From the NCBI GenBank assembly GCA_000002445.1, contig CP000071.1:320001-384000 (forward strand): DNA of 64,000 nt, written 5' to 3'. Below the pieces are notes generated by a model that saw only the letters and a list, made by a program, of their open reading frames with translations, was not told the origin of the DNA and did no database searches. Source of the stretch: Trypanosoma brucei. Its lineage: Eukaryota. Position 1 is the stretch's first letter. Each line of letters begins with the position of its first letter. Positions 48,489 to 64,000 of this stretch are shown here, piece by piece. Position numbers and translations under genes: made by a program.

Positions 48489-49464
48489 AATATAGAAGTA
48501 AAACACGTAGGTCACCAACGTAACGAAGGAACAGTGCCCGGCCCTGCTCCTGTGGCACCCCGTATATTTAAGCGAAAAAAATCTTGCTCTTCCACCTGCT
48601 TACTTTGTCAGTGGAAACGCTACAACCTAATTTAAGAAGAAGGAGTTGTTGTTGGGACGAATAAAAGTAGCAGGTTTAGAGAAAATTGGTAGCATACGCA
48701 CTGTCTCTAACCATATCTCTCTTAATGGTCTGAAGCGACCGTGTATACACCGCCGAACCGCTGACCCCTACACACGTGCGCCAATGTTGTCCTCACATGC
48801 TTTCATGCATGAAGGTCGCGGCGATGGTGAGGGAAGGAAAAGAAAGGAAAGGATTGAGTTAAAAGATGTGTCCCGCAACCGTCTAAATGCCACAAGAAAA
48901 CCCCACGGCGGAAAATGTAGGAAAAGGCAACCCTTCCTTTCAGTGCGGGTCAACGGCACATGAGAAGTCGACAAAAGTGATACAAAGAATGGTGTTTCCC
49001 AAGAATGCAAAGGCACAACAAAAGTATTTTTAATACTAGCAAGGAACAAGGGTAACAGTAAAGGAACATGTCGCAGGTTCACAGGGTCCATGATCACTAA
49101 AGTCCACAATCAACAACAGAACGAGAGTTGTAGGAAAACAAAAATTGGTCAAAAGTTTTACTCACATTATCATTATAGCATGCAGAGTCCCCAAAGGGTA
49201 AAGGAAACAGAAAAACTATATGAACCAATACTCACCCCGCACCTACCCACTGCATAACACTTACATCAAATACCAAAGTGCTCACACATTTACGTAAGTG
49301 CAAATTCCCTTCTTTCATGCCTCCGTGCAACCGAAAAAAAAAACCTCCATCACACGCAGGTTTCGTTTGCAACCACGTATATGAATTATCAACCCCCCCC
49401 TCCCCTCCGCATCCCTACACTCCCTCCTCACTCTCTTCTCTTCTCTTCTCAAACATTTCCTACA

Positions 49465-52400
49465 TCATCTAATACGTTCCTCGCACCAAGCGCTCATACG
49501 TCTCCATCCTCGCTCCCGAGGATGACTATGCCTCGACCACCAAAACTGGCTAACGCCCCGCATTGTTACATGTTCTCTCACCCTCTGCCATTGTGCCCTC
49601 GCCACCAGGCGCTGTCCAAAACGCATATAACTTCCCACATTATTCGAAGCAGAAGAATGATGCTCAACATCCTCAGCTAACTTCACGGCAATGCGACGCG
49701 CCCCCGGTTCCATGTCCTCCAGTTCAGCACCCTTTTCAAATGAGGGTTCCGACACCGGAATCAGGCGGGAAACAGAAACAAATACAAGTGTCAGCGATGC
49801 AATCAGAATCGATGCAATCCACTGTTCTGCTCTCAACGGTACACACGACATAAACTCTTTTAAGACCTCCACGGCCAAAACCTGAAAACCCACACAACAA
49901 ACCACGATAACCAAAAATGACTTTGAACGAATAAAAAGCCCTTCAAATACATTAACTTCATCATACACTTTGCGGGCATTAAACATATTAAATATGGTAA
50001 AGAAAATAAAAACGTTAAAAACAACAGTTGGAAGTTCCTTCCCCTTCGCCTTTAACCACTTACCACCATATTGGGTTAATAAAAGAACGCTAACAACCTG
50101 AACTACAGTAGCAGTCAGTATTGTCAACCACATTCGACGTGAGACAAGGGGAGCTCGGGGGGAAGACGGACCACGATTTAAGCAATCCTCTGTCGGTTGC
50201 TCCGTTGCGAGAGCGAGGGCCGCAAGTGTGTCCATAAGAAGATTTACCCATAACAGCTGTACAGTCGTTAACGGTGACATATCATGAGCAGACAAAAAAG
50301 AACCAACAAAAACAACAACAATAGAAGCAATATTAATAGAAAGTTGTAACTGCAGGAACTTGCGGATGTTGTCATTCACAGTCCGTCCCCAAACAACGGC
50401 ACGCTGGACAGAACGGAAGTTGTCGTCTAAAAGCACAATATCACCGGACTTCACCGCTATATCCGTGCCACTGCGCATCACAAAACCCACATTTGCAAGA
50501 CGCAGCGCAGGGGCGTCATTTGTCCCATCACCAGTCACAGCAACGACCTCACCACGGAGCATCAGCATCAGTACGAGCAGTTGCTTGTCCAGAGGCTGCG
50601 AACGCCCCATCACCATCATCCGGTCAAGAACAGGCCAGAACTTCTCCATGTTCGCCTCGTCACCATAAGTGTCATACACAAGGTTGCGGAAGTCCTTCCC
50701 AGTGAGCGCAAGATCACCACGCAGTCGATTGTAAATTCCACATTGCCGAGAAATTGCAACGGCTGTGTCGAGATTGTCACCCGTACACATCCTCACTGTC
50801 ACTCCCGCACGCTGGCACATTCGCACAGCATCCACAACCTCTGGACGAAGCGGGTCCTGGATGCCTAATAGTGCAAGCCACACAAATGGTCCCTCGGGTT
50901 CCTCCTCGGGAACCGCACCGTCCGTACCGATACGCCCGTATGCCACGCCGATTGTGCGATTTGCGTCCCCCGCTATTGACCGTATCTGCGCAGTGATCAT
51001 CTCAGTTACCTCCTCCGTCAGCGGCTCCTCACGACCCTCTGACGACAAGTATCGGTTGCACATGCCAAGCACACGATCAGAGCCCCCTTTCACGTACTGC
51101 ATCACAACTCCATCCGCACCTGCAACCACAGCAGTCATAAACTTCCGTTCGCTCGTAAAAGGAAAGATGGCAAAGCCACGGCTGCGGTTTGTCATGCGTA
51201 ACTTCTGGTGTGGAAGCTCCTTGTCATTACAACTACCCGGTACCGATATCAACACGCGATCCACAAAATCCAATATCGCTTGGTCAGTTTTGTTGCCCTT
51301 GTCGGTACGCCACGTCCATCGAGACAGTAAGTCAGACTCAGCTCCCACATTACCTGGTAAAAGCTCCTTCTCACTCGAACTATTCAGTGCAAGACCAAGC
51401 ATTAGTAACGACTGTGCATCACTAGACACACCCTCCAGATTAACCGTGGACGAGGGATCTCCGGGATTCGAGACACGGAACCGCCGCATCCCAATGTAAC
51501 CTTGTACCACAGTCATACGATTCTGAGTCAGCGTCCCAGTTTTATCACTACAAATCTGTGTTGCATTGCCCATTGTCTCACAAGCACACAAACGCCTCAC
51601 CTGATTATTGTCCTTCTGCATCTGGCTCTGTGAGTACGCAAGAGCAATCGTCACCGCCAACGGCAAGCCCTCTGGCACTGCGACGACAACAATCGTCACA
51701 CAAAGTAAAAAAATATCAAGAAACTTTTTTGCGCGTAACTCTTCTTTACCACGAAGAACGAGAAGGATGTAAAACAAAGAAAGCAGAGACATAAGTATCA
51801 CTGCCGCTCCAATTCCTATCCGACCAATAAACCCAGCTAATTCGTCCAATCGCTCCTGCAAGGGAGTCGCCCTCGGTTCACCGTCGAGACGAGATTCCAT
51901 TAGCAGCTTTCCACCAAAAGAAGACTCACCGACGGCGCACGCAAGAATGTAAGCATCCTCAGCCGTACTCACAACAGTCCCAGAAAGTAAGATTGGATGT
52001 TCGGCGCCTTTCTTTTTCAGATCATTCTCGCCAGTCACACTCGACTCATCAACAACAACACTCAAACCACGTACGTATAAACCATCTACAGGGATAACAA
52101 GACCCGGTGACAAGGACACAAGATCACCCACAACAATTTCTGTCACATCCACCGTAACCTTGTGACCATCACGAATGACGGAGATTGGCTGAGCAGAGTT
52201 CTCCTCCACAAGAGCACGGAATTTCAACTCCTTGCGGTAATCCTGAATAGACGATGCTGAGGTTACTGCAATCACGGCCATAAGAATGGCGGTGCCCTCT
52301 ATCCAACCTGTCTTATAGTCAACCTTCTCGTGTCCGGGTTCCGGCACAGTTAACCCGAGGATAAGCGACACACATGCGGCAAGGGTCAAAAGTATGATCA

Positions 52401-52773
52401 TGCGGTCACTCCATGCAGCTTTAAAAATCTTCCAGAATGTCAGCGGAGCCTCCTCAGGAAGCTCATTCCTCCCATACACAGCACGCCGATTCTCTACAGA
52501 AAAAGAGTCGATGCCATCTGTTATACTCGTGCCAAGTCGTTCGGCAATACCCTCAACGCCGCCAAGTTCCTCGTATAGGGGCTTAGCGTCACCGACGCAA
52601 CTGAACAAGGTGTGAAGCTCTCCCTTAATCCCTATGCCGATACGATCTTCGAGCTCCACCTCCACTGCAACGGACCCATCACTTCTGGTAAGGCCAGTGG
52701 ATAAAAACGCTTGCCTCTCTCGACCGCGGCCGGCAAGTGTACCGTAGTTCGAAGTGTCTTTTGGGGAAATCAT
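49465..52773 (-). CDS. PMCA/vacuolar-type Ca2+-transporting P-type ATPase, array copy A (1102 aa), with a C-terminal ~270 aa divergent from copies B and C.
   Basis: P-type ATPase motifs CSDKTGTLTQN (phosphorylation site), MCTGDN, GDGTNDAPAL and PEGLPLAVTIALAYS. The track start at 52776 is GTG; the ATG is at 52773..52771 (verified). The length of 1102 aa matches my recollection of one of the two T. brucei PMC proteins (TbPMC2), which is unconfirmed. Confidence 0.85.
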   Translation of the reverse strand: MISPKDTSNYGTLAGRGRERQAFLSTGLTRSDGSVAVEVELEDRIGIGIKGELHTLFSCVGDAKPLYEELGGVEGIAERLGTSITDGIDSFSVENRRAVYGRNELPEEAPLTFWKIFKAAWSDRMIILLTLAACVSLILGLTVPEPGHEKVDYKTGWIEGTAILMAVIAVTSASSIQDYRKELKFRALVEENSAQPISVIRDGHKVTVDVTEIVVGDLVSLSPGLVIPVDGLYVRGLSVVVDESSVTGENDLKKKGAEHPILLSGTVVSTAEDAYILACAVGESSFGGKLLMESRLDGEPRATPLQERLDELAGFIGRIGIGAAVILMSLLSLFYILLVLRGKEELRAKKFLDIFLLCVTIVVVAVPEGLPLAVTIALAYSQSQMQKDNNQVRRLCACETMGNATQICSDKTGTLTQNRMTVVQGYIGMRRFRVSNPGDPSSTVNLEGVSSDAQSLLMLGLALNSSSEKELLPGNVGAESDLLSRWTWRTDKGNKTDQAILDFVDRVLISVPGSCNDKELPHQKLRMTNRSRGFAIFPFTSERKFMTAVVAGADGVVMQYVKGGSDRVLGMCNRYLSSEGREEPLTEEVTEMITAQIRSIAGDANRTIGVAYGRIGTDGAVPEEEPEGPFVWLALLGIQDPLRPEVVDAVRMCQRAGVTVRMCTGDNLDTAVAISRQCGIYNRLRGDLALTGKDFRNLVYDTYGDEANMEKFWPVLDRMMVMGRSQPLDKQLLVLMLMLRGEVVAVTGDGTNDAPALRLANVGFVMRSGTDIAVKSGDIVLLDDNFRSVQRAVVWGRTVNDNIRKFLQLQLSINIASIVVVFVGSFLSAHDMSPLTTVQLLWVNLLMDTLAALALATEQPTEDCLNRGPSSPRAPLVSRRMWLTILTATVVQVVSVLLLTQYGGKWLKAKGKELPTVVFNVFIFFTIFNMFNARKVYDEVNVFEGLFIRSKSFLVIVVCCVGFQVLAVEVLKEFMSCVPLRAEQWIASILIASLTLVFVSVSRLIPVSEPSFEKGAELEDMEPGARRIAVKLAEDVEHHSSASNNVGSYMRFGQRLVARAQWQRVREHVTMRGVSQFWWSRHSHPRERGWRRMSAWCEERIR

Positions 52774-53425
52774 CACTCCCTCAAAACTTTCCCTCCCACT
52801 CGGTCACACTTCGCGCAACCAAACGTTACTTTATCCTGTACTCGCTTTGGGCCACTCAACAACAATCCAGAAATATCACCTACCTGTATCGCAAATGACA
52901 CCTAACGTTATTCTCATTATTTTTCAAAATTGCATTTGATATAATTGTTACAAGTCAATGAAGGGAAAGAAAGAGACAGGGAAAGGGAGTGACAGAAGTG
53001 TTCCTAAGTGGTTAATTGAACATGACTTTTGAGTCACGTAAGGAAAGAAAGGTGAACACAAAAGCATCCACTGGTCTTCCCCCTCCCTTTCTACACCTAA
53101 TATTCCCTAATCGGCCTCTTCCGTTAATATTACCTGCGCGTCACCGAAAGTACAGAAGGGTGAAGTGGGGCCCCTTGCACAGACGTATGCGAACTGCCGG
53201 TTCACAGGCACACCATGAAACCATTAACCTTATCCTGTTTCTTACTTCACACAACAATTTCTCTTACGCTTACTTTCAGTCCGGCTGCTTCATCCTCATG
53301 AAGAAGCAGTTATGCACTTCCGCATTACTTGGTAATATTTGGTTGTTGTTATTGCTCCCCTTCGCTTTCATTTATCACCAATGACCACAGGCTGTTCACT
53401 GTAGAGTTGCTTCTCAGGTACATAC

Positions 53426-54421
53426 CTACAGGTCACGTAGGAGTGATGAAATGAGAAGGGTACCATCGCACAGAGCCTCTAGATGCTGAGCCTGTTCCCT
53501 AAGTTGCACCAGTGCCAACATTGTGTCCACTCCACGTGCGGGGGGTACATTGTTTTCATCTCGCTGGTTTCTGGAAGTTTCCCGACTGAGTTTGCCCTCC
53601 AAATCACTTAAGTTTCGCTGTACAGACTCAAGGAGGGCAACCTTGTAATCAGCCATAGAATCAGAGTGATGTACTGTACTGTTGCTTGGCAACGGTGCGA
53701 TATCAATGCCGTTTAGGCAAAAAAGTTGATAAGCATCCACCTCCACCTCCACCTTCACCTCGCGAAGCACACCTTGCTTGGGGACCGAACACGCACGCAG
53801 AAGCCGTGCTTCTTCCTGCATCCCACTCTTCTTGTCAGTCTTTTTGGTTTTTTTGTTCTTTCTGGAAAAGTCGAGAAATGCATCCGTCGGCACGAACGCA
53901 CGAAGGTACAACTTACCCATTAGGCCGGTACGGAAGGGGTCGTAGACAAGAAGCACACTTGGGTGACCGTCAATTGCCAAGTTCGCCAACCGATCAGCTG
54001 TCACAACCGAGTAGGGATCATTCACACAAGCACTGGAAACAATGAAGTAACCTACGCTATAACTGTCTAGGCACTCCTTACGCAGCATCTCCTTTACTTT
54101 CTCGTACATCTTCTGCTGCTGTTTACTCTCGGCCGTGTCATCCCGCTCATCCTCTGCGTCACCAGAAGCTCCCAGGCTGGGAAGAACACTCGTGATGAGA
54201 ATCGTATCCCCTTGTTGAACTCCACAAAGACGTCCGCCGACGGCACTGTGGCACGTGGCATCCTGCGAGAAGCTGCCGAGATGTGTGAGGGCGGGAAATG
54301 ATATGCGAACTTTCTTCGCTGGCGGCAGTTCCACGTGAGAATCACTATCCTTCGCGAATATCGATTCGCCAGTGGGGGCGTCGTCGGAAACGACCTGAAC
54401 CTGCGGAAAACCGTGAAACAT
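53426..54421 (-). CDS. MPN (JAB/Mov34) domain protein with a C-terminal coiled-coil tail, likely translation initiation factor eIF3 subunit h; array copy 1.
   Basis: MPN-like core (GDTILITSVLPS...GYFIVSS...HPSVLLVYDP) and a C-terminal helical region. ATG at 54421 verified. The eIF3h assignment is from fold pattern and memory of a duplicated eIF3h at this locus, so it is an inference. Confidence 0.6.
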   Translation of the reverse strand: MFHGFPQVQVVSDDAPTGESIFAKDSDSHVELPPAKKVRISFPALTHLGSFSQDATCHSAVGGRLCGVQQGDTILITSVLPSLGASGDAEDERDDTAESKQQQKMYEKVKEMLRKECLDSYSVGYFIVSSACVNDPYSVVTADRLANLAIDGHPSVLLVYDPFRTGLMGKLYLRAFVPTDAFLDFSRKNKKTKKTDKKSGMQEEARLLRACSVPKQGVLREVKVEVEVDAYQLFCLNGIDIAPLPSNSTVHHSDSMADYKVALLESVQRNLSDLEGKLSRETSRNQRDENNVPPARGVDTMLALVQLREQAQHLEALCDGTLLISSLLRDL

Positions 54422-55581
54422 TTTCGAGCAAGCGGCTCAAACGTGAAGCGATGGACCCTATCGGTGCTTATTTTAATACCTTAAAACCTGGAAGCCAATG
54501 AAGCAGTTTGTGTCCACATGGGGCGACGGCAGATAATAGCAACATTGAAATTGACAAGAAGAATAGGATGAAAGGAAATTTGTAACAATGAGCAAGACAG
54601 AAGAGAAGCTGCGGCATGCACAACTACGACGGTGGACCCATACACCAGCACACGAATCTCTGATAAATCTTGATCAATTTATAATACTCCGTAAACATTT
54701 TCCGCTCCCGAAGCTTCCCGGAGGTTTCGATAATGGCATACCTTAACGTGTCCTGTGCCCTTTCCTTCACCCCTCCGGAGGGTAAGAAAATAAAGCATCA
54801 AACACCAACCATCAAACCTAAAAAGAATAGTAAAATGATGACAAGAGGGGGGATAGTGTTAGGACATTTAAGATTTACACAAGAAGATGAAAACGCTGGT
54901 TGCTGTGAACAGAAAAAAAACAGAAAACGTATAAAATGGGACGAGTGAGCGGAAGCTAAAACAGTCGCTACGCAGCCCCTTCAATTTAAAAAGAGGAGTA
55001 CGCAGAAGAATATGTAAGTGCGAAGCCCATTAGGAGCGTATGATACATAACATATTATGTATGCAAAAAGTAAAATAGCGAAAAATAACTTCTTTTCTCC
55101 TAAAAAAGGGAAAAAGAAAGCCAATGAAAAGAGAGAAGAGAAAAATGAACGGTGTCGTACACATTTTTTGTATCATTTTCTTTTTGATATTCTCTGTTGC
55201 CCCTCCTCGATGTCACGCGGAGCAAAGGGCCCACCATTCTTATGCATCCTCAGCCATCCACTCCAGTCCCTCACATCAACTGTCATACCACCGCAAAACA
55301 GGGACGAAACGCTTCAAATAAAAGATCTGAGAAATAACGAAATGGGGGGGGTGGAAATGATGCGGTAGGGCAGCAACGGTGGTGTTACCAAAAAATGACC
55401 GTGTGGAAGGAATCCACGCCAAGCTTCCGCACCGCAATTTATTATTAGAAAGAACGCAAAATAACAATAAAAGAGCTTACGAACGGGACTGGAGAACTCT
55501 TCATCCGATCCAAACAAATCATTTAGGAGGAAAAAGTTATTAAAAGATGAGGGGTAAGGTCAGGGTATAAAAGACAAACAT

Positions 55582-58500
55582 TCATACCATCCTTAATGTG
55601 TCATAAAGTTGTCGGGTGGAGCCCCGTTTCATATCGCGATCCGTCCATGCGCGGCGGAATGCATTAACAACACGAGGTTTCTTCACATGCTCTGCCTGAA
55701 GTCTACGCCACCGCGACTGCGCACGCAACCGACCCGCAAGAAGCGAAGAGGCGTCACTTGTCCCGTCCGTCTCCCGCTGCCTCTGCTCCGCAGCCACCGA
55801 AACATCTTTGATGAGGCGAGAGGCACTACCGTCGACATTTCTACTATCTGGTATCAGTGCAAACACAGGTTCCCTGATGCTCACCACCCGGCTCAAAATA
55901 CCCACAACAAGTGAAATGGCAGCAATACCGATACTTACACCCCATTGCTTGATCGAAAGGGGACGGACACCCATAAAGTCGTTAAAGGTGCAGATGGCCA
56001 ACACTTGAAACGCAATGCACGAACCGACGACAACAATAAAAAATACCGACCGACCCATCCCTTCAAACACATTAAGTTCTCGGTACAATTTGCGACAATT
56101 TAACATGTGGAATATAGTGCCGAAAACAAAAACGTTGAATAGAAATGTTCGGTGCAAATGCTTGCCATTCTCATCCTCCCCAAAATACTTTCCACCAAAC
56201 GTGAGCACAGAAAAGAAAGCAGTTAGCTGAACTGTGGCAACGGAAAAAATTGTGAACCACATTCGACGTGAGACAAGGGGAGCTCGGGGGGAAGACGGAC
56301 CACGATTTAAGCAATCCTCTGTCGGTTGCTCCGTTGCGAGAGCAGGGGCCGCAAGTGTGTCCATAAGAAGATTTACCCATAACAGCTGTACAGTCGTTAA
56401 CGGTGAAGACTTACCCTCCCTCACGAGGGTACCTACGACGGTTAATGAAAAACACACCAAATTCACCGTGAACTGTAACTGCAGGAACTTGCGGATGTTG
56501 TCATTCACAGTCCGCCCCCAAACAACGGCACGCTGGACGGAACGGAAGTTGTCGTCTAAAAGCACAATATCACCGGACTTCACCGCTATATCCGTGCCAC
56601 TGCGCATCACAAAACCCACATTTGCAAGACGCAGCGCAGGGGCGTCATTTGTCCCATCACCAGTCACAGCAACGACCTCACCACGGAGCATCAGCATCAG
56701 TACGAGCAGTTGCTTGTCCAGAGGCTGCGAACGCCCCATCACCATCATCCGGTCAAGAACAGGCCAGAACTTCTCCATGTTCGCCTCGTCACCATAAGTG
56801 TCATACACAAGGTTGCGGAAGTCCTTCCCAGTGAGCGCAAGATCACCACGCAGTCGATTGTAAATTCCACATTGCCGAGAAATTGCAACGGCTGTGTCGA
56901 GATTGTCACCCGTACACATCCTCACTGTCACTCCCGCACGCTGGCACATTCGCACAGCATCCACAACCTCTGGACGAAGCGGGTCCTGGATGCCTAATAG
57001 TGCAAGCCACACAAATGGTCCCTCGGGTTCCTCCTCGGGAACCGCACCGTCCGTACCGATACGCCCGTATGCCACGCCGATTGTGCGATTTGCGTCCCCC
57101 GCTATTGACCGTATCTGCTCAGTGATCATCTCAGTTACCTCCTCCGTCAGCGGCTCCTCACGACCCTCTGACGACAAGTATCGGTTGCACATGCCAAGCA
57201 CACGATCAGAGCCCCCTTTCACGTACTGCATCACAACTCCATCCGCACCTGCAACCACAGCAGTCATAAACTTCCGTTCGCTCGTAAAAGGAAAGATGGC
57301 AAAGCCACGGCTGCAGTTTGTCATGCGTAACTTCTGGTGTGGAAGCTCCTTGTCATTACAACTACCCGGTACCGATATCAACACGCGATCCACAAAATCC
57401 AATATCGCTTGGTCAGTTTTGTTGCCCTTGTCGGTACGCCACGTCCATCGAGACAGTAAGTCAGACTCAGCTCCCACATTACCTGGTAAAAGCTCCTTCT
57501 CACTCGAACTATTCAGTGCAAGACCAAGCATTAGTAACGACTGTGCATCACTAGACACACCCTCCAGATTAACCGTGGACGAGGGATCTCCGGGATTCGA
57601 GACACGGAACCGCCGCATCCCAATGTAACCTTGTACCACAGTCATACGATTCTGAGTCAGCGTCCCAGTTTTATCACTGCAAATCTGTGTTGCATTGCCC
57701 ATTGTCTCACAAGCACACAAACGCCTCACCTGATTATTGTCCTTCTGCATCTGGCTCTGTGAGTACGCAAGAGCAATCGTCACCACCAATGGCAAGCCCT
57801 CTGGCACTGCAATAACAACAATCGTCACACAAAGTAGGAGAAAGTTCAGGAACTTCTTCGGGTAAAATTGTTGTTTGTTTGTAGCAATTCGCTCAATTTC
57901 GATGATACAAAGTACTATGAAAAAAAGAACGGCGGATATAATTGCAACTCGAGCGATGAAGCTAACTAAGTTTTGCGACCGCTCCTGCAAGGGAGTCGCC
58001 CTCGGTTCACCGTCGAGACGAGATTCCATTAGCAGCTTTCCACCAAAAGAAGACTCACCGACGGCGCACGCAAGAATGTAAGCATCCTCAGCCGTACTCA
58101 CAACAGTCCCAGAAAGTAAGATTGGATGTTCGGCGCCTTTCTTTTTCAGATCATTCTCGCCAGTCACACTCGACTCATCAACAACAACACTCAAACCACG
58201 TACGTATAAACCATCTACAGGGATAACAAGACCCGGTGACAAGGACACAAGATCACCCACAACAATTTCTGTCACATCCACCGTAACCTTGTGACCATCA
58301 CGAATGACGGAGATTGGCTGAGCAGAGTTCTCCTCCACAAGAGCACGGAATTTCAACTCCTTGCGGTAATCCTGAATAGACGATGCTGAGGTTACTGCAA
58401 TCACGGCCATAAGAATGGCGGTGCCCTCTATCCAACCTGTCTTATAGTCAACCTTCTCGTGTCCGGGTTCCGGCACAGTTAACCCGAGGATAAGCGACAC

Positions 58501-58902
58501 ACATGCGGCAAGGGTCAAAAGTATGATCATGCGGTCACTCCATGCAGTTTTAAAAATCTTCCAGAATGTCAGCGGAGCCTCCTCAGGAAGCTCATTCCTC
58601 CCATACACAGCACGCCGATTCTCTACAGAAAAAGAGTCGATGCCATCTGTTATACTCGTGCCAAGTCGTTCGGCAATACCCTCAACGCCGCCAAGTTCCT
58701 CGTATAGGGGCTTAGCGTCACCGACGCAACTGAACAAGGTGTGAAGCTCTCCCTTAATCCCTATGCCGATACGATCTTCGAGCTCCACCTCCACTGCAAC
58801 GGACCCATCACTTCTGGTAAGGCCAGTGGATAAAAACGCTTGCTTCTCTCGACCGCGGCCGGCAAGTGTACCGTAGTTCGAAGTGTCTTTTGGGGAAATC
58901 AT
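55582..58902 (-). CDS. PMCA/vacuolar-type Ca2+-transporting P-type ATPase, array copy B (1106 aa).
   Basis: Same P-type motifs as copy A. ATG at 58902..58900 (verified; the track start at 58905 is GTG). Nearly identical to copy A over about two thirds of its length, but with a different TM3/TM4 patch and C-terminal region. The length of 1106 aa matches my recollection of TbPMC1, which is unconfirmed. Confidence 0.85.
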   Translation of the reverse strand: MISPKDTSNYGTLAGRGREKQAFLSTGLTRSDGSVAVEVELEDRIGIGIKGELHTLFSCVGDAKPLYEELGGVEGIAERLGTSITDGIDSFSVENRRAVYGRNELPEEAPLTFWKIFKTAWSDRMIILLTLAACVSLILGLTVPEPGHEKVDYKTGWIEGTAILMAVIAVTSASSIQDYRKELKFRALVEENSAQPISVIRDGHKVTVDVTEIVVGDLVSLSPGLVIPVDGLYVRGLSVVVDESSVTGENDLKKKGAEHPILLSGTVVSTAEDAYILACAVGESSFGGKLLMESRLDGEPRATPLQERSQNLVSFIARVAIISAVLFFIVLCIIEIERIATNKQQFYPKKFLNFLLLCVTIVVIAVPEGLPLVVTIALAYSQSQMQKDNNQVRRLCACETMGNATQICSDKTGTLTQNRMTVVQGYIGMRRFRVSNPGDPSSTVNLEGVSSDAQSLLMLGLALNSSSEKELLPGNVGAESDLLSRWTWRTDKGNKTDQAILDFVDRVLISVPGSCNDKELPHQKLRMTNCSRGFAIFPFTSERKFMTAVVAGADGVVMQYVKGGSDRVLGMCNRYLSSEGREEPLTEEVTEMITEQIRSIAGDANRTIGVAYGRIGTDGAVPEEEPEGPFVWLALLGIQDPLRPEVVDAVRMCQRAGVTVRMCTGDNLDTAVAISRQCGIYNRLRGDLALTGKDFRNLVYDTYGDEANMEKFWPVLDRMMVMGRSQPLDKQLLVLMLMLRGEVVAVTGDGTNDAPALRLANVGFVMRSGTDIAVKSGDIVLLDDNFRSVQRAVVWGRTVNDNIRKFLQLQFTVNLVCFSLTVVGTLVREGKSSPLTTVQLLWVNLLMDTLAAPALATEQPTEDCLNRGPSSPRAPLVSRRMWFTIFSVATVQLTAFFSVLTFGGKYFGEDENGKHLHRTFLFNVFVFGTIFHMLNCRKLYRELNVFEGMGRSVFFIVVVGSCIAFQVLAICTFNDFMGVRPLSIKQWGVSIGIAAISLVVGILSRVVSIREPVFALIPDSRNVDGSASRLIKDVSVAAEQRQRETDGTSDASSLLAGRLRAQSRWRRLQAEHVKKPRVVNAFRRAWTDRDMKRGSTRQLYDTLRMV

Positions 58903-59554
58903 CACTCCCTCAAAACTTTCCCTCCCACTCGGTCACACTTCGCGCAACCAAACGTTACTTTATCCTGTACTCGCTTTGGGCCACTCAACAACAATCCAGA
59001 AATATCACCTACCTGTATCGCAAATGACACCTAACGTTATTCTCATTATTTTTCAAAACTGCATTTGATATAATTGTTACAAGTCAATGAAGGGAAAGAA
59101 AGAGACAGGGAAAGGGAGTGACAGAAGTGTTCCTAAGTGGTTAATTGAACATGACTTTTGAGTCACGTAAGGAAAGAAAGGTGAACACAAAAGCATCCAC
59201 TGGTCTTCCCCCTCCCTTTCTACACCTAATATTCCCTAATCGGCCTCTTCCGTTAATATTACCTGCGCGTCACCGAAAGTACAGAAGGGTGAAGTGGGGC
59301 CCCTTGCACAGACGTATGCGAACTGCCGGTTCACAGGCACACCATGAAACCATTAACCTTATCCTGTTTCTTACTTCACACAACAATTTCTCTTACGCTT
59401 ACTTTCAGTCCGGCTGCTTCATCCTCATGAAGAAGCAGTTATGCACTTCCGCATTACTTGGTAATATTTGGTTGTTGTTATTGCTCCCCTTCGCTTTCAT
59501 TTATCACCAATGACCACAGGCTGTTCACTGTAGAGTTGCTTCTCAGGTACATAC

Positions 59555-60550
59555 CTACAGGTCACGTAGGAGTGATGAAATGAGAAGGGTACCATCGCAC
59601 AGAGCCTCTAGATGCTGAGCCTGTTCCCTAAGTTGCACCAGTGCCAACATTGTGTCCACTCCACGTGCGGGGGGTACATTGTTTTCATCTCGCTGGTTTC
59701 TGGAAGTTTCCCGACTGAGTTTGCCCTCCAAATCACTTAAGTTTCGCTGTACAGACTCAAGGAGGGCAACCTTGTAATCAGCCATAGAATCAGAGTGATG
59801 TACTGTACTGTTGCTTGGCAACGGTGCGATATCAATGCCGTTTAGGCAAAAAAGTTGATAAGCATCCACCTCCACCTCCACCTTCACCTCGCGAAGCACA
59901 CCTTGCTTGGGGACCGAACACGCACGCAGAAGCCGTGCTTCTTCCTGCATCCCACTCTTCTTGTCAGTCTTTTTGGTTTTTTTGTTCTTTCTGGAAAAGT
60001 CGAGAAATGCATCCGTCGGCACGAACGCACGAAGGTACAACTTACCCATTAGGCCGGTACGGAAGGGGTCGTAGACAAGAAGCACACTTGGGTGACCGTC
60101 AATTGCCAAGTTCGCCAACCGATCAGCTGTCACAACCGAGTAGGGATCATTCACACAAGCACTGGAAACAATGAAGTAACCTACGCTATAACTGTCTAGG
60201 CACTCCTTACGCAGCATCTCCTTTACTTTCTCGTACATCTTCTGCTGCTGTTTACTCTCGGCCGTGTCATCCCGCTCATCCTCTGCGTCACCAGAAGCTC
60301 CCAGGCTGGGAAGAACACTCGTGATGAGAATCGTATCCCCTTGTTGAACTCCACAAAGACGTCCGCCGACGGCACTGTGGCACGTGGCATCCTGCGAGAA
60401 GCTGCCGAGATGTGTGAGGGCGGGAAATGATATGCGAACTTTCTTCGCTGGCGGCAGTTCCACGTGAGAATCACTATCCTTCGCGAATATCGATTCGCCA
60501 GTGGGGGCGTCGTCGGAAACGACCTGAACCTGCGGAAAACCGTGAAACAT
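59555..60550 (-). CDS. MPN-domain protein (eIF3h-like), array copy 2, with protein identical to 53426..54421.
   Basis: Identical 331-aa translation. ATG at 60550 verified. The longer overlapping ORF 60223..60729(-) is in another frame and is an artefact. Confidence 0.6.
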   Translation of the reverse strand: MFHGFPQVQVVSDDAPTGESIFAKDSDSHVELPPAKKVRISFPALTHLGSFSQDATCHSAVGGRLCGVQQGDTILITSVLPSLGASGDAEDERDDTAESKQQQKMYEKVKEMLRKECLDSYSVGYFIVSSACVNDPYSVVTADRLANLAIDGHPSVLLVYDPFRTGLMGKLYLRAFVPTDAFLDFSRKNKKTKKTDKKSGMQEEARLLRACSVPKQGVLREVKVEVEVDAYQLFCLNGIDIAPLPSNSTVHHSDSMADYKVALLESVQRNLSDLEGKLSRETSRNQRDENNVPPARGVDTMLALVQLREQAQHLEALCDGTLLISSLLRDL

Positions 60551-61715
60551 TTTCGAGCAAGCGGCTCAAACGTGAAGCGATGGACCCTATCGGTGCTTCT
60601 CTCAACATACGCACCTAAAACCCGGAAGCCAATGAAGCAGTTTGTGTCCACATGGGGCGACGGCAGATAATAGCAACATTGAAATTGACAAGAAGAATAG
60701 GATGAAAGGAAATTTGTAACAATGAGCAAGACAGAAGAGAAGCTGCGGCATGCACAACTACGACGGTGGACCCATACACCAGCACACGAATCTCTGATAA
60801 ATCTTGATCAATTTATCATACTCCGTAAACATTTTCCGCTCCCGAAGCTTCCCGGAGGTTTCGATAATGGCATACCTTAACGTGTCCTGTGCCCTTTCCT
60901 TCACCCCTCCGGAGGGTAAGAAAATAAAGCATCAAACACCAACCATCAAACCTAAAAAGAATAGTAAAATGATGACAAGAGGGGGGATAGTGTTAGGACA
61001 TTTAAGATTTACACAAGAAGATGAAAACGCTGGTTGCTGTGAACAGAAAAAAAACAGAAAACGTATAAAATGGGACGAGTGAGCGGAAGCTAAAACAGTC
61101 GCTACGCAGCCCCTTCAATTTAAAAAGAGGAGTACGCAGAAGAATATGTAAGTGCGAAGCCCATTAGGAGCGTATGATACATAACATATTATGTATGCAA
61201 AAAGTAAAATAGCGAAAAATAACTTCTTTTCTCCTAAAAAAGGGAAAAAGAAAGCCAATGAAAAGAGAGAAGAGAAAAATGAACGGTGTCGTACACATTT
61301 TTTGTATCATTTTCTTTTTGATATTCTCTGTTGCCCCTCCTCGATGTCACGCGGAGCAAAGGGCCCACCATTCTTATGCATCCTCAGCCATCCACTCCAG
61401 TCCCTCACATCAACTGTCATACCACCGCAAAACAGGGACGAAACGCTTCAAATAAAAGATCTGAGAAATAACGAAATGGGGGGGGTGGAAATGATGCGGT
61501 AGGGCAGCAACGGTGGTGTTACCAAAAAATGACCGTGTGGAAGGAATCCACGCCAAGCTTCCGCACCGCAATTTATTATTAGAAAGAACGCAAAATAACA
61601 ATAAAAGAGCTTACGAACGGGACTGGAGAACTCTTCATCCGATCCAAACAAATCATTTAGGAGGAAAAAGTTATTAAAAGATGAGGGGTAAGGTCAGGGT
61701 ATAAAAGACAAACAT

Positions 61716-64000
61716 TCATACCATCCTTAATGTGTCATAAAGTTGTCGGGTGGAGCCCCGTTTCATATCGCGATCCGTCCATGCGCGGCGGAATGCATTA
61801 ACAACACGAGGTTTCTTCACATGCTCTGCCTGAAGTCTACGCCACCGCGACTGCGCACGCAACCGACCCGCAAGAAGCGAAGAGGCGTCACTTGTCCCGT
61901 CCGTCTCCCGCTGCCTCTGCTCCGCAGCCACCGAAACATCTTTGATGAGGCGAGAGGCACTACCGTCGACATTTCTACTATCTGGTATCAGTGCAAACAC
62001 AGGTTCCCTGATGCTCACCACCCGGCTCAAAATACCCACAACAAGTGAAATGGCAGCAATACCGATACTTACACCCCATTGCTTGATCGAAAGGGGACGG
62101 ACACCCATAAAGTCGTTAAAGGTGCAGATGGCCAACACTTGAAACGCAATGCACGAACCGACGACAACAATAAAAAATACCGACCGACCCATCCCTTCAA
62201 ACACATTAAGTTCTCGGTACAATTTGCGACAATTTAACATGTGGAATATAGTGCCGAAAACAAAAACGTTGAATAGAAATGTTCGGTGCAAATGCTTGCC
62301 ATTCTCATCCTCCCCAAAATACTTTCCACCAAACGTGAGCACAGAAAAGAAAGCAGTTAGCTGAACTGTGGCAACGGAAAAAATTGTGAACCACATTCGA
62401 CGTGAGACAAGGGGAGCTCGGGGGGAAGACGGACCACGATTTAAGCAATCCTCTGTCGGTTGCTCCGTTGCGAGAGCGAGCGCCGCAAGTGTGTCCATAA
62501 GAAGATTTACCCATAACAGCTGTACAGTCGTTAACGGTGAAGACTTACCCTCCCTCACGAGGGTACCTACAACAGTTACTAGAAAAGAAACAACGTTCAC
62601 GGTTAATTGCAGCTGCAGGAACTTGCGGATGTTGTCATTCACAGTCCGCCCCCAAACAACGGCACGCTGGACAGAACGGAAGTTGTCGTCTAAAAGCACA
62701 ATATCACCGGACTTCACCGCTATATCCGTGCCACTGCGCATCACAAAACCCACATTTGCAAGACGCAGCGCAGGGGCGTCATTTGTCCCATCACCAGTCA
62801 CAGCAACGACCTCACCACGGAGCATCAGCATCAGTACGAGCAGTTGCTTGTCCAGAGGCTGCGAACGCCCCATCACCATCATCCGGTCAAGAACAGGCCA
62901 GAACTTCTCCATGTTCGCCTCGTCACCATAAGTGTCATACACAAGGTTGCGGAAGTCCTTCCCAGTGAGCGCAAGATCACCACGCAGTCGATTGTAAATT
63001 CCACATTGCCGAGAAATTGCAACGGCTGTGTCGAGATTGTCACCCGTACACATCCTCACTGTCACTCCCGCACGCTGGCACATTCGCACAGCATCCACAA
63101 CCTCTGGACGAAGCGGGTCCTGGATGCCTAATAGTGCAAGCCACACAAATGGTCCCTCGGGTTCCTCCTCGGGAACCGCACCGTCCGTACCGATACGCCC
63201 GTATGCCACGCCGATTGTGCGATTTGCGTCCCCCGCTATTGACCGTATCTGCTCAGTGATCATCTCAGTTACCTCCTCCGTCAGCGGCTCCTCACGACCC
63301 TCTGACGACAAGTATCGGTTGCACATGCCAAGCACACGATCAGAGCCCCCTTTCACGTACTGCATCACAACTCCATCCGCACCTGCAACCACAGCAGTCA
63401 TAAACTTCCGTTCGCTCGTAAAAGGAAAGATGGCAAAGCCACGGCTGCGGTTTGTCATGCGTAACTTCTGGTGTGGAAGCTCCTTGTCATTACAACTACC
63501 CGGTACCGATATCAACACGCGATCCACAAAATCCAATATCGCTTGGTCAGTTTTGTTGCCCTTGTCGGTACGCCACGTCCATCGAGACAGTAAGTCAGAC
63601 TCAGCTCCCACATTACCTGGTAAAAGCTCCTTCTCACTCGAACTATTCAGTGCAAGACCAAGCATTAGTAACGACTGTGCATCACTAGACACACCCTCCA
63701 GATTAACCGTGGACGAGGGATCTCCGGGATTCGAGACACGGAACCGCCGCATCCCAATGTAACCTTGTACCACAGTCATACGATTCTGAGTCAGCGTCCC
63801 AGTTTTATCACTGCAAATCTGTGTTGCATTGCCCATTGTCTCACAAGCACACAAACGCCTCACCTGATTATTGTCCTTCTGCATCTGGTTCTGTGAGTAC
63901 GCAAGAGCAATCGTCACCGCCAACGGCAAGCCCTCTGGCACTGCGACGACAACAATCGTCACACAAAGTAGGAGAAAGTTCAGGAACTTCTTCGGGTAAA
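61716..64000 (-). CDS. PMCA/vacuolar-type Ca2+-ATPase, array copy C, 5'-truncated by the window edge (the N-terminal about 350 codons lie beyond 64000).
   Basis: The reading frame is open to the window end. The track's M at 63962 is an internal GTG, not a start. The C-terminal region matches copy B, and an internal segment around 63900..63960 matches copy A. Confidence 0.8.
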   Translation of the reverse strand, partial: YPKKFLNFLLLCVTIVVVAVPEGLPLAVTIALAYSQNQMQKDNNQVRRLCACETMGNATQICSDKTGTLTQNRMTVVQGYIGMRRFRVSNPGDPSSTVNLEGVSSDAQSLLMLGLALNSSSEKELLPGNVGAESDLLSRWTWRTDKGNKTDQAILDFVDRVLISVPGSCNDKELPHQKLRMTNRSRGFAIFPFTSERKFMTAVVAGADGVVMQYVKGGSDRVLGMCNRYLSSEGREEPLTEEVTEMITEQIRSIAGDANRTIGVAYGRIGTDGAVPEEEPEGPFVWLALLGIQDPLRPEVVDAVRMCQRAGVTVRMCTGDNLDTAVAISRQCGIYNRLRGDLALTGKDFRNLVYDTYGDEANMEKFWPVLDRMMVMGRSQPLDKQLLVLMLMLRGEVVAVTGDGTNDAPALRLANVGFVMRSGTDIAVKSGDIVLLDDNFRSVQRAVVWGRTVNDNIRKFLQLQLTVNVVSFLVTVVGTLVREGKSSPLTTVQLLWVNLLMDTLAALALATEQPTEDCLNRGPSSPRAPLVSRRMWFTIFSVATVQLTAFFSVLTFGGKYFGEDENGKHLHRTFLFNVFVFGTIFHMLNCRKLYRELNVFEGMGRSVFFIVVVGSCIAFQVLAICTFNDFMGVRPLSIKQWGVSIGIAAISLVVGILSRVVSIREPVFALIPDSRNVDGSASRLIKDVSVAAEQRQRETDGTSDASSLLAGRLRAQSRWRRLQAEHVKKPRVVNAFRRAWTDRDMKRGSTRQLYDTLRMV

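What the first reader, a model, noticed from the sequence alone, without database searches (positions are those of the whole stretch)
57837..57979. 143-bp in-frame replacement patch covering the TM3/TM4 region that distinguishes ATPase copy B from copy A
Copy A 51708..51850 encodes ...LDELAGFIGRIGIGAAVILMSLLSLFYILLVLRGKEELRAKKFLDIF..., whereas copy B 57837..57979 encodes ...SQNLVSFIARVAIISAVLFFIVLCIIEIERIATNKQQFYPKKFLNF.... The two are exactly the same length and sit between stretches of near-perfect identity. This is a cassette-like swap of a membrane segment inside otherwise homogenised genes.
Basis: seen in the sequence. Interest (0 to 1): 0.5.

Follow-up and report, generated by a model that had tools for sequence, protein, structure and literature searches.

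The report
Old unhomogenised island in tandem calcium-pump genes
Three tandem calcium-pump genes of Trypanosoma brucei are kept almost identical by gene conversion, and the 143-bp "patch" is a short, ancient stretch around membrane helix 3 that escaped this copying, so it is a real but fairly ordinary case of mosaic evolution in a gene array.

Summary
Copy A 51708-51850 and copy B 57837-57979 are the same length with no gaps. They differ at 71 of 143 bases, while the rest of the alignable 3.3 kb is about 99.5% identical (P~1e-61).

The window is T. brucei TREU927 chromosome 8:
- A = Tb927.8.1160
- B = Tb927.8.1180 (TbPMC1)
- C = Tb927.8.1200 (TbPMC2)

The patch covers stalk 3 and helix M3, the M3-M4 loop and the first 9 residues of M4. 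It is not the only difference between A and B. There is a second island in M5, and everything from M7 to the 3' UTR is also diverged.

Synonymous divergence in the patch is saturated (pS 0.70), like the M7-M10 and tail regions and unlike the flanks (0-0.02). Segment trees show concerted evolution in the core. In M7-M10/tail they show two paralogue lineages older than the T. brucei-T. vivax split. The patch tree leans the same way, with modest support.

So the patch is most likely a relic that gene conversion left behind, not an inserted cassette. It is also divisible: its first ~42 bp exist in three versions. The gene family and the general phenomenon are known, and interest is low to moderate.

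The parts
51708..51850 (-). M3 island, a-type, in copy A (Tb927.8.1160). Codons 308-356: end of stalk S3, helix M3, M3-M4 loop and first 9 residues of M4.
   Evidence: Searches give the boundaries and the 71/143 differences. One search gives the helix map. One search shows it is 143/143 identical in the T. b. equiperdum downstream gene.
57837..57979 (-). M3 island, b-type, in copy B (Tb927.8.1180, TbPMC1). The sub-block 57938-57979 (TM3a, SQNLVSFIAR) is private to B. The sub-block 57837-57937 (TM3b) is shared with copy C.
   Evidence: One search shows that B departs from positions L309, A313, G317 and G320, which are at least 90% conserved.
63971..64000 (-). Start of the same island in copy C (Tb927.8.1200, TbPMC2), b-type. 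It is cut by the end of the window.
   Evidence: all 14 sites that differ between A and B in 63971-63999 are B-like in C; 30/30 identical to B. The full protein P0122 shows LDELAAFIGR followed by the b-type remainder.
57785..57814 (-). Five B-private substitutions in M4 next to the island (V to I, A to V in PEGLPLAV, plus synonymous changes). A and C are identical here.
   Evidence: (pattern B|AC at 57785, 57790, 57811, 57813, 57814).
50278..50349 (-). Second island, a-type, in copy A: membrane half of M5 plus the M5-M6 loop.
   Evidence: 41/72 differences from B; pS 0.64; helix 786-827.
56407..56478 (-). Second island, b-type, in copy B. The version in copy C (62541-62612) is b-like but differs from B at 15/72 bases.
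49465..50125 (-). 3' part of copy A that was never homogenised (M7-M10 and cytosolic tail, a-type). The conversion block ends at 'SRRMW', the start of M7.
   Evidence: pS 0.59-0.84; {A, T. congolense} 100% bootstrap.
55582..56254 (-). 3' part of copy B (M7-M10 and tail, b-type). It is identical to copy C at 61716-62388.
   Evidence: ({B, C, T. vivax upstream gene} 98% bootstrap).
49465..52773 (-). Copy A coding sequence, 1102 aa. It is an exact match to XP_846953.1/Q57VN8 (Tb927.8.1160, TB4b).
   Evidence: TIGR01517, 1047.7 bits.
55582..58902 (-). Copy B coding sequence, 1106 aa. This is Tb927.8.1180, TbPMC1, reported to be acidocalcisomal.
   Evidence: P0125; 992 bits; fold matches PMCA structures. 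Localisation is taken from PMC6884021.
61716..64000 (-). Copy C, 3' 761 codons only. This is Tb927.8.1200, TbPMC2, reported to be in the plasma membrane.
   Evidence: P0122.
53426..54421 (-). 331-aa spacer gene that belongs to the ~6.13-kb repeat unit. The second copy is at 59555-60550.
   Evidence: The same PMCA / ~331-aa gene / PMCA layout occurs in T. vivax and T. b. equiperdum.

Best explanation
The three genes are tandem PMCA-type (P2B) Ca2+-ATPase paralogues of T. brucei chromosome 8. They descend from an old two-gene array: an upstream gene with a short N-terminus and b-type M7-M10/tail, and a downstream gene with a long N-terminus and a-type M7-M10/tail. Recurrent gene conversion or unequal exchange keeps about 820 central codons nearly identical within each species. 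This is concerted evolution.

The 143-bp patch is a piece of the old paralogue divergence, covering S3/M3, the M3-M4 loop and the start of M4, that conversion tracts did not overwrite in the T. brucei lineage. The M5 island is a second such piece. The patch edges are the ends of conversion tracts. The patch is therefore a relic, not an insertion.

What is shown:
- Block-wise divergence.
- Saturated synonymous divergence inside the patch and near zero outside it.
- Concerted evolution of the core, against cross-species grouping by paralogue type of M7-M10/tail.
- The patch tree not grouping the T. brucei copies.
- Stability of the island across two strains.

What is inferred:
- Why the island persists. 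My best guess (about 55:45) is that heteroduplex rejection at about 50% identity makes tracts stop at the island, so it perpetuates itself.
- Purifying selection against mixing M3, M5 and M7, which are neighbours in the P2-ATPase fold, is a likely second factor.

Copy B looks like an unequal-crossover hybrid, with an A-like 5' part and a C-like 3' part. It also carries private, old-looking clusters in TM3a, M4, M5 and M6 whose source is unknown.
For: Identity of the locus:
- Copy A protein is exactly XP_846953.1.
- B and C match P0125 and P0122.
- Three linked copies separated by one gene are described in PMC6884021.

Block structure: 112 of the 127 A/B differences lie in two islands totalling 215 bp of 3275 bp.

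Age of the patch:
- pS is 0.70 in the patch, 0.64 in M5, 0.59 in M7-M10 and 0.84 in the tail.
- pS is 0.000, 0.021 and 0.025 in the three homogenised blocks.
- 11 of the 16 conserved residues in the patch use different codons.

Phylogeny:
- Cores: T. brucei copies monophyletic at 100%, and the T. vivax pair at 100%.
- M7-M10+tail: {B, C, T. vivax upstream} 98%, {A, T. congolense} 100%, T. brucei monophyly 0%.
- Patch: T. brucei monophyly 7%, {B, C, T. vivax} 70%, {A, Stercoraria} 53%.
- The closest non-brucei relatives of the a-type patch are same-group orthologues (T. conorhini 67%, T. rangeli 60%). For the b-type it is T. vivax at 45%.

The same architecture occurs elsewhere:
- T. vivax has two tandem genes with an identical core and diverged N-terminus and M7-M10/tail.
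- Five Leishmaniinae genera show the same two boundaries.

Stability across strains: the a-type M3 and M5 islands are 100% identical at nucleotide level in the T. b. equiperdum downstream gene. That strain's upstream gene equals copy C wherever C is visible.

Tract ends vary between copies: C is b-like in the patch but A-like at the M4 sites 22 bp away, and TM3a has three haplotypes.

M3, M5 and M7 line one cleft in SERCA (PMC6843150).
Against: - The patch tree rests on 49 columns and its support is only moderate (53-70%).
- T. vivax and the Leishmaniinae pairs have homogenised M3 and M5 while keeping different M7-M10. One M3/M5 version therefore works with both M7-M10 types there, which weakens the co-adaptation argument. 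It also means the T. brucei lineage must have escaped conversion at this spot for a very long time.
- Two database proteins combine a b-type M3 with a-type M5 and M7-M10: T. b. gambiense P0002 and T. equiperdum P0124. P0002 comes from a locus that PMC2854126 reports as one copy in the assembly, with reads for a further isoform left unassembled. I did not check the P0124 assembly. If these proteins are real, the island can be converted without obvious harm.
- The B-private TM3a block fits neither ancestral type, and the two-lineage relic model does not explain it.
- I did not verify the heterology-barrier step in the literature here. It rests on general knowledge that recombination in T. brucei depends on homology and mismatch repair.
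Confidence: 0.78

Rival explanations
1. Cassette import. After the genes had been homogenised, a short ectopic gene-conversion tract copied a foreign M3 segment into one copy. The donor would be another PMCA paralogue, an allele or a pseudogene.
For: - The edges are sharp, the lengths are equal and the frame is kept.
- The TM3a block of copy B (57938-57979) differs from both other haplotypes at 15-18 of 42 bases, although B is otherwise nearly identical to A or C around it. This is what import from an unsampled donor would look like.
- Segmental conversion is common in T. brucei arrays (PMC2854126).
Against: - No second copy of either patch, of either M5 island or of B's TM3a exists in the 64-kb window.
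- Both versions belong to the same orthologue group. No other fetched protein resembles them better than the syntenic orthologues do.
- The a-type patch sits in the gene with a-type M5 and a-type M7-M10, and the b-type with b-type, in two strains. A relic predicts this. Import would have to produce it by coincidence.
- The T. brucei genome outside the window could not be searched.
Confidence: 0.1
2. Recent in-situ adaptive divergence. The patch was homogenised like its flanks and then diverged rapidly under positive selection on M3, for instance to suit a different membrane.
For: - Amino-acid identity in the patch is only 33%.
- Copy B changes several nearly invariant positions.
- The pumps are reported in different membranes (PMC6884021).
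Against: - Synonymous sites are saturated in the patch (pS 0.70) while the flanks have pS 0-0.02. Selection on the protein does not produce that.
- dN/dS is well below 1 (0.60/2.02, with dS saturated).
- The T. brucei copies are not monophyletic for the patch (7%).
- GenBank TbPMC1 and TbPMC2 (P0001 and P0127), which are reported in different membranes, carry the same patch and differ in the N-terminal ~65 residues. These two entries share an apparent sequencing error, so their bodies may not be independent.
Confidence: 0.04
3. Assembly or annotation artefact. On this reading the patch results from mis-assembly of a repeated array.
For: Tandem arrays are often collapsed or made chimaeric in assemblies. 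The T. b. gambiense locus is an example.
Against: - The a-type patch is 143/143 identical in an independent strain and assembly (L004).
- The b-type occurs in independently cloned entries AAL55433 and AAP46286.
- Both ORFs are intact and both pass the PMCA model cut-off.
Confidence: 0.02

Closest known systems
Concerted evolution and sequence mosaics in T. brucei tandem gene arrays (Jackson 2007, PMC1855330; T. b. gambiense genome paper, PMC2854126)
   Same: Tandem duplicates in one polycistronic unit are homogenised by recombination, with mosaics and differences between subspecies. This very locus is listed as a 6215-bp unit with 3 copies in T. b. brucei and 1 assembled copy in T. b. gambiense.
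   Different: The 2007 paper contains none of the words ATPase, calcium, mosaic or transmembrane. None of the papers I read describes the internal M3 and M5 islands or the conserved outer boundaries. Here the unconverted parts are membrane helices rather than UTRs or gene ends alone.
TbPMC1 / TbPMC2 (Luo et al. 2004, as summarised in PMC6884021 and PMC6027440)
   Same: Copies B and C are these genes. They are PMCA-type pumps that complement yeast pmc1/vcx1 mutants, and they are reported in acidocalcisomes and the plasma membrane respectively.
   Different: Copy A (Tb927.8.1160, TB4b), the only carrier of the a-type patch, is uncharacterised. The patch itself has no reported function.
Leishmania LM3-LM4 and T. 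vivax tandem PMCA pairs
   Same: They have the same layout (PMCA, one gene, PMCA) and the same homogenised core with diverged N-terminus and M7-M10/tail. The boundaries fall at the same codons.
   Different: In those pairs M3 and M5 are 89-100% identical between the two genes. Only T. brucei keeps internal islands.
Mammalian PMCA isoform diversity by alternative splicing at site A (first cytosolic loop, just before M3) and site C (C-terminal tail). This is recalled from general knowledge and was not checked here.
   Same: Variable segments lie near M3 and in the C-terminal tail of an otherwise constant pump.
   Different: Here the variants are separate genes, not splice forms. The variable segment is M3 itself rather than the loop before it. 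No functional link has been shown.

Membership tests
P2B (PMCA-type) Ca2+-transporting P-type ATPase | The whole protein matches the curated PMCA-type model above its cut-off. | tested here: met
   TIGR01517 scores 1047.7 bits for A and 992 bits for B against a cut-off of 507. The SERCA, PMR1 and other type models score below their cut-offs.
P2B (PMCA-type) Ca2+-transporting P-type ATPase | P-type signature motifs: TGE(x) in the A domain, PEGLP in M4, DKTGT phosphorylation site, TGDN, GDGTNDAP. | tested here: met
   Read directly from the translations: SVTGEN, AVPEGLPL, CSDKTGTLT, CTGDN and TGDGTNDAPAL are present in both A and B. All lie outside the patch.
P2B (PMCA-type) Ca2+-transporting P-type ATPase | Ten-helix P2 fold closest to solved PMCA structures. 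| tested here: met
   The AlphaFold2 model of B has pLDDT 80.6 and pTM 0.76. The best PDB matches are mouse PMCA structures such as 9gsf_A (E 7e-65, TM 0.70/0.81), with human PMCA1 6a69 and ACA8 8qmp also in the top ten, ahead of SPCA, SERCA and Na,K-ATPase.
P2B (PMCA-type) Ca2+-transporting P-type ATPase | ATP-driven Ca2+ transport. | not testable with these tools
   Yeast complementation is reported for TbPMC1 and TbPMC2 (PMC6884021). Nothing is reported for copy A.
Concerted evolution of tandem paralogues by gene conversion or unequal exchange | Within the converted region, paralogues of one species group together rather than with their orthologues. | tested here: met
   For core1 and core2, T. 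brucei A+B+C group at 100% bootstrap and the T. vivax pair at 100%. Each Leishmaniinae pair clusters together.
Concerted evolution of tandem paralogues by gene conversion or unequal exchange | Unconverted regions group by paralogue type across species. | tested here: met
   For M7-M10+tail, {B, C, T. vivax upstream} has 98% support and {A, T. congolense} 100%. For the 49-codon patch the same tendency has moderate support (70% and 53%, with T. brucei monophyly at 7%).
Concerted evolution of tandem paralogues by gene conversion or unequal exchange | Abrupt switches between near-zero and saturated synonymous divergence. | tested here: met
   pS is 0.000 / 0.70 / 0.021 / 0.64 / 0.025 / 0.59 / 0.84 along the gene. 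Differences are concentrated with P = 1e-61.
Concerted evolution of tandem paralogues by gene conversion or unequal exchange | Tract end-points differ between copies or strains, giving mosaics. | tested here: met
   C is b-like in the patch but A-like at the M4 sites. The M5 island in C differs from that in B. TM3a has three haplotypes.
Donor-templated cassette replacement (segmental ectopic conversion, as in antigen-gene mosaics) | An identifiable donor copy of the inserted segment outside the recipient. | tested here: not met
   blastn-short of both patches, both M5 islands and B's TM3a against the window found only themselves and their tandem counterparts. The rest of the genome could not be searched.
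Donor-templated cassette replacement (segmental ectopic conversion, as in antigen-gene mosaics) | The segment's history is discordant with the history of the unconverted remainder of its own gene. | tested here: not met
   The a-type patch travels with a-type M5 and M7-M10, and the b-type with b-type, in TREU927 and T. b. equiperdum. The exception is B's private TM3a block, whose history is unresolved.

The most novel reading that the evidence does not exclude
The M3 island, the M5 island and M7-M10 may form a co-adapted, lipid-facing module. These helices line one cleft in P2-ATPases. T. brucei would then keep the module distinct between pump isoforms by selection, while conversion keeps the catalytic core and the ion-binding helices M4 and M6 constant. 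In an organism without alternative cis-splicing this would be a genomic counterpart of mammalian PMCA splice-site diversity. It might tune each pump to a particular membrane, and the a-type module of the uncharacterised Tb927.8.1160 would mark a third functional isoform.
Probability: 0.2. Interest if true: 0.5.

Novelty: new member of a known kind. Interest (0 to 1): 0.25.

Why it matters
The result explains why three annotated Ca2+-ATPase genes of a pathogen are nearly identical yet differ sharply in a few membrane helices.

It gives isoform-specific sequence that can be used for probes, tags or RNAi. The M3 and M5 islands and the 3' part are the only places where Tb927.8.1160 can be told apart from TbPMC1 and TbPMC2.

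It points to an old tandem pair whose conversion boundaries have stayed at the same codons across trypanosomatids.

It is also a caution for assemblies and proteomics at this locus. The single T. b. gambiense gene joins a C-type 5' end to an A-type 3' end, and peptide assignments between copies are ambiguous.

It does not reveal a new mechanism.

Tried and rejected
1. Donor search. blastn-short of both patches, both M5 islands and B's TM3a against the window found only chance 9-14-mers.
2. Extent of the old duplication unit. I tested whether it included the downstream gene. The 331-aa spacer gene and the 352-aa ORF after copy A are not homologous.
3. DNA for the rest of copy C. A look-up of P0122 found nothing on record. 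I used the T. b. gambiense locus (L001) and the T. b. equiperdum locus (L004) instead.
4. T. b. gambiense P0002 as evidence that M3 type is uncoupled from M7-M10 type. I set this aside. The genome paper reports one assembled copy with reads for a further isoform left unassembled, so the gene may be a collapsed chimaera.
5. GenBank TbPMC2 (P0127) as an independent mosaic. I treat it with caution because it shares an apparent compensated frameshift (GHGYSGEVRC) with the TbPMC1 entries.
6. Helical-face test. The 9 residues identical between the a- and b-type M3 helices do not lie on one face (moment 0.155 against a permutation mean of 0.256, P = 0.76). This gives no support for a conserved packing face.
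7. Literature. Jackson 2007 has no mention of this locus. A phrase search for the M3/M5/M7 pocket failed twice before one search found a review.
8. The first NJ/bootstrap script timed out and was rewritten.
9. Contacts between M3 and M5/M7 could not be computed because the structure tool returns no coordinates.
Full report
**What is at the coordinates**

The last 17 kb of the window holds three minus-strand ORFs for P-type ATPases:
- A: 49465-52776.
- B: 55582-58905.
- C: 61716 to beyond 64000.

They repeat with periods of 6129 and 6134 bp, and each pair is separated by a 331-aa ORF.

An ungapped alignment of 51500-52050 with 57629-58179 is identical except for a block whose first and last differing bases are 51708/57837 and 51850/57979. 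Within the block 71 of 143 bases differ, which is 50.3% identity.

Across the 3275 bp where units A and B align there are 127 differences. 71 lie in this block, 41 in a second 72-bp block (A 50278-50349), and 15 in the remaining 3060 bp. The chance of that concentration under a uniform distribution is about 1e-61.

**Identity of the genes**

Copy A's product is exactly XP_846953.1/Q57VN8, which is Tb927.8.1160 of T. brucei brucei TREU927. B corresponds to Tb927.8.1180 (TbPMC1, 1106 aa). C corresponds to Tb927.8.1200 (TbPMC2, 1080 aa).

[quoted passage not shown] It places TbPMC1 in acidocalcisomes and TbPMC2 in the plasma membrane, and the 1102-aa copy is uncharacterised (PMC6884021).

Both A and B pass the curated PMCA-type model: TIGR01517 scores 1047.7 and 992 bits against a cut-off of 507. 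They carry the TGEN, PEGLP, DKTGT, TGDN and GDGTNDAP motifs. An AlphaFold2 model of B (pLDDT 80.6) matches PMCA structures best, with 9gsf_A at E 7e-65.

**Where the patch sits**

In the model, residues 304-340 form one long helix (stalk S3 plus M3). Residues 341-347 are the exoplasmic or lumenal loop. Residues 348-365 are the first half of M4, ending at PEGLP (367-371).

The patch is codons 308-356, so it covers most of S3/M3, the loop and the first nine residues of M4. HMMER aligns it to the corresponding M3 to M4 stretch of PMCA1 and PMCA2 structures.

**It is not the only difference**

A and B also differ in two other places:
- A 72-bp island covering the membrane half of M5 and the M5-M6 loop.
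- Everything 3' of A~50125 / B~56254: M7-M10, the cytosolic tail, the 3' UTR and the downstream DNA. This is unalignable at nucleotide level.

B and C are essentially identical over the whole 6.1-kb unit, apart from M5, five sites in M4, two in M6 and two others. C has a different N-terminus, which lies outside the window.

**Age of the patch**

Nei-Gojobori counts between A and B give the following proportions of synonymous differences:

| Segment | pS |
|---|---|
| N-terminus + core 1 (codons 1-307) | 0.000 |
| M3 patch | 0.70 |
| Core 2 (codons 357-810) | 0.021 |
| M5 island | 0.64 |
| M6 block | 0.025 |
| M7-M10 | 0.59 |
| Tail | 0.84 |

Eleven of the sixteen residues conserved in the patch use different codons. 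The patch is therefore as old as the parts that were never homogenised. It is not a recent burst of protein-level change.

**Comparative evidence**

T. vivax has the same layout: PMCA, a 332-aa gene, then PMCA. Its two genes are identical from about residue 50 to 'SRRMWCTI' and diverged in the N-terminus and in M7-M10/tail.

Tandem pairs in Leishmania, Leptomonas, Novymonas and Porcisia show the same pattern. Their boundaries fall at the same codons, and M3 and M5 are 89-100% identical within each pair.

Neighbour-joining trees with bootstrap give:
- Cores: T. brucei copies monophyletic at 100% and the T. vivax pair at 100%. This is concerted evolution.
- M7-M10+tail: {B, C, T. vivax upstream gene} 98% and {A, T. 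congolense} 100%, with T. brucei monophyly at 0%. This indicates two paralogue lineages older than the T. brucei-T. vivax split.
- The 49-codon patch: T. brucei monophyly 7%, {B, C, T. vivax} 70% and {A plus the T. cruzi-clade species} 53%.

The nearest non-brucei relatives of the a-type patch are same-group orthologues (T. conorhini 67%, T. rangeli 60%, T. melophagium 58%, T. cruzi 56%). For the b-type it is T. vivax at 45%. Both versions are thus diverged forms of the same ancestral segment, and neither looks foreign.

**Stability and divisibility**

In a T. b. equiperdum assembly the array has two genes, an upstream one of 1080 aa and a downstream one of 1103 aa. The downstream gene is 100% identical to copy A at nucleotide level in the M3 patch, M4, M5 and M6. 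The upstream gene equals copy C wherever C is visible. The island is therefore real and stable.

It is also not a single unit:
- The first ~42 bp (TM3a) exist in three haplotypes. A has a (LDELAGFIGR). The upstream gene has a' (LDELAAFIGR, encoded with different codons). B has b (SQNLVSFIAR).
- The next ~101 bp (TM3b) have two haplotypes, a and b.
- The M4 sites 22 bp further on group A with C against B.

Conversion tracts have therefore ended at several different points in and around the patch.

**Interpretation**

The data fit concerted evolution of an old tandem pair, with the M3 and M5 segments as unconverted relics in the T. brucei lineage. 'Replacement patch' most likely has the direction backwards: the flanks were replaced and the patch was left.

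Copy B combines the A-type N-terminus and upstream region with the C-type 3' part and downstream region. That is what an unequal crossover between a downstream-type and an upstream-type gene would produce. The two-gene array in T. b. equiperdum is consistent with this, although that assembly might also be collapsed.

**Why the island persists (inference)**

I see two non-exclusive reasons.

1. A heterology barrier.
   - At about 50% identity, heteroduplex formation and mismatch-repair rejection should stop tracts at the island. This rests on general knowledge of homology dependence of recombination in T. brucei, and I did not verify it here.
   - M3 and M5 are the least conserved parts of the core among orthologues, at 46-67% identity against 70-76%. 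They would be the first to cross such a threshold.
2. Selection against mixing.
   - M3, M5 and M7 line one cleft in SERCA (PMC6843150).
   - In the two assemblies I relied on, a-type M3b and a-type M5 occur only with a-type M7-M10.

Against selection, T. vivax and the Leishmaniinae use one M3/M5 with both M7-M10 types. Two database proteins also mix the types: P0002, whose locus is known to be incompletely assembled, and P0124, whose assembly I did not check. I put the barrier slightly ahead, at about 55:45.

**Function**

The patch has no demonstrated role. The GenBank TbPMC1 and TbPMC2 entries carry the same patch and differ mainly in the N-terminal ~65 residues. The reported difference in localisation therefore does not need the patch. 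Those entries share an apparent sequencing error, however, and may not be independent.

The a-type uncharged M3 run is longer than the b-type (22 against 16 residues), but the location of copy A is unknown. Proteomic peptides could not be assigned to it with confidence (PMC4263762).

Copy B departs from positions that are at least 90% conserved in the family (L309S, A313V, G317A, G320A, L853P). It also scores 56 bits lower than A on the PMCA model, yet it is the characterised, essential pump.

**Unexplained**

B's private clusters in TM3a, M4, part of M5 and M6 include synonymous differences at conserved codons. They look old, but B is otherwise nearly identical to A or C. No donor is present in the window, and a third old lineage or an unsampled allele cannot be excluded.

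**Novelty and verdict**

Mosaic, concerted evolution of T. brucei tandem arrays is established (PMC1855330; PMC2854126). This locus is even listed there as a 3-copy against 1-copy difference between subspecies. The papers I could search do not describe the M3 and M5 islands or the conserved conversion boundaries.

This is a new, well-resolved example of a known process in known genes. It is useful for telling the isoforms apart and as an entry point to test helix co-adaptation, but it is not surprising to a specialist. Interest is 0.25.

Noticed in passing
A 50278-50349, B 56407-56478, C 62541-62612: A second unhomogenised island covers the membrane half of M5 and the M5-M6 loop. A and B differ at 41/72 bases (17% amino-acid identity). 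C is b-like but differs from B at 15/72.
   Followed up: yes
A ~50125, B ~56254, C ~62388; L002; proteins P0007-P0027: The 3' end of the homogenised block ('SRRM(W/H)xT', the start of M7) and its 5' end (just before the Cation_ATPase_N domain) fall at the same codons in T. brucei, T. vivax and the tandem pairs of five Leishmaniinae genera. This implies very long-term concerted evolution with fixed boundaries.
   Followed up: partly
B 57938-57979, 57785-57814, 56344-56345: Copy B (TbPMC1) has private substitution clusters at otherwise nearly invariant positions: LDxLAxxIGR becomes SQNLVSFIAR, PEGLPLAV becomes PEGLPLVV, and LAALALATE becomes LAAPALATE. Synonymous differences are mixed in. Their origin is unknown.
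   Followed up: partly
whole array 49465-64000; L004: Copy B has the N-terminus and upstream region of A and the 3' part and downstream region of C, as expected for an unequal-crossover hybrid. The T. b. equiperdum assembly holds only two genes, C-like and A-like.
   Followed up: partly
L001 10001-13234 (T. b. gambiense): The single annotated T. b. gambiense gene joins a C-type N-terminus and M3 to an A-type M5, M7-M10 and tail. The genome paper reports one assembled copy, with reads for a further isoform left unassembled, so this gene is probably a collapsed chimaera.
   Followed up: partly
proteins P0001, P0127, P0128 against B residues 747 and 770-779: The early GenBank TbPMC1 and TbPMC2 entries read KGDG...GHGYSGEVRC where the genome reads TGDG...GTDIAVKSGD. 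This looks like a compensated frameshift or sequencing error shared by entries for different genes.
   Followed up: no
about 54466-54504 against 60595-60638: The A-to-B and B-to-C periods differ by 5 bp (6129 against 6134). A short indel and low-identity spot in the otherwise identical inter-copy spacer accounts for this.
   Followed up: no
53426-54421 and 59555-60550 against 47460-48518: The 331-aa spacer gene is duplicated with the repeat unit. It shows no similarity to the 352-aa ORF downstream of copy A, so the repeat ends inside the pump gene on that side.
   Followed up: yes
30001-32000 and 38001-40000: These are low-GC stretches (0.416 and 0.365) in a window that is otherwise about 0.47-0.55 GC, with negative GC skew throughout.
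   Followed up: no
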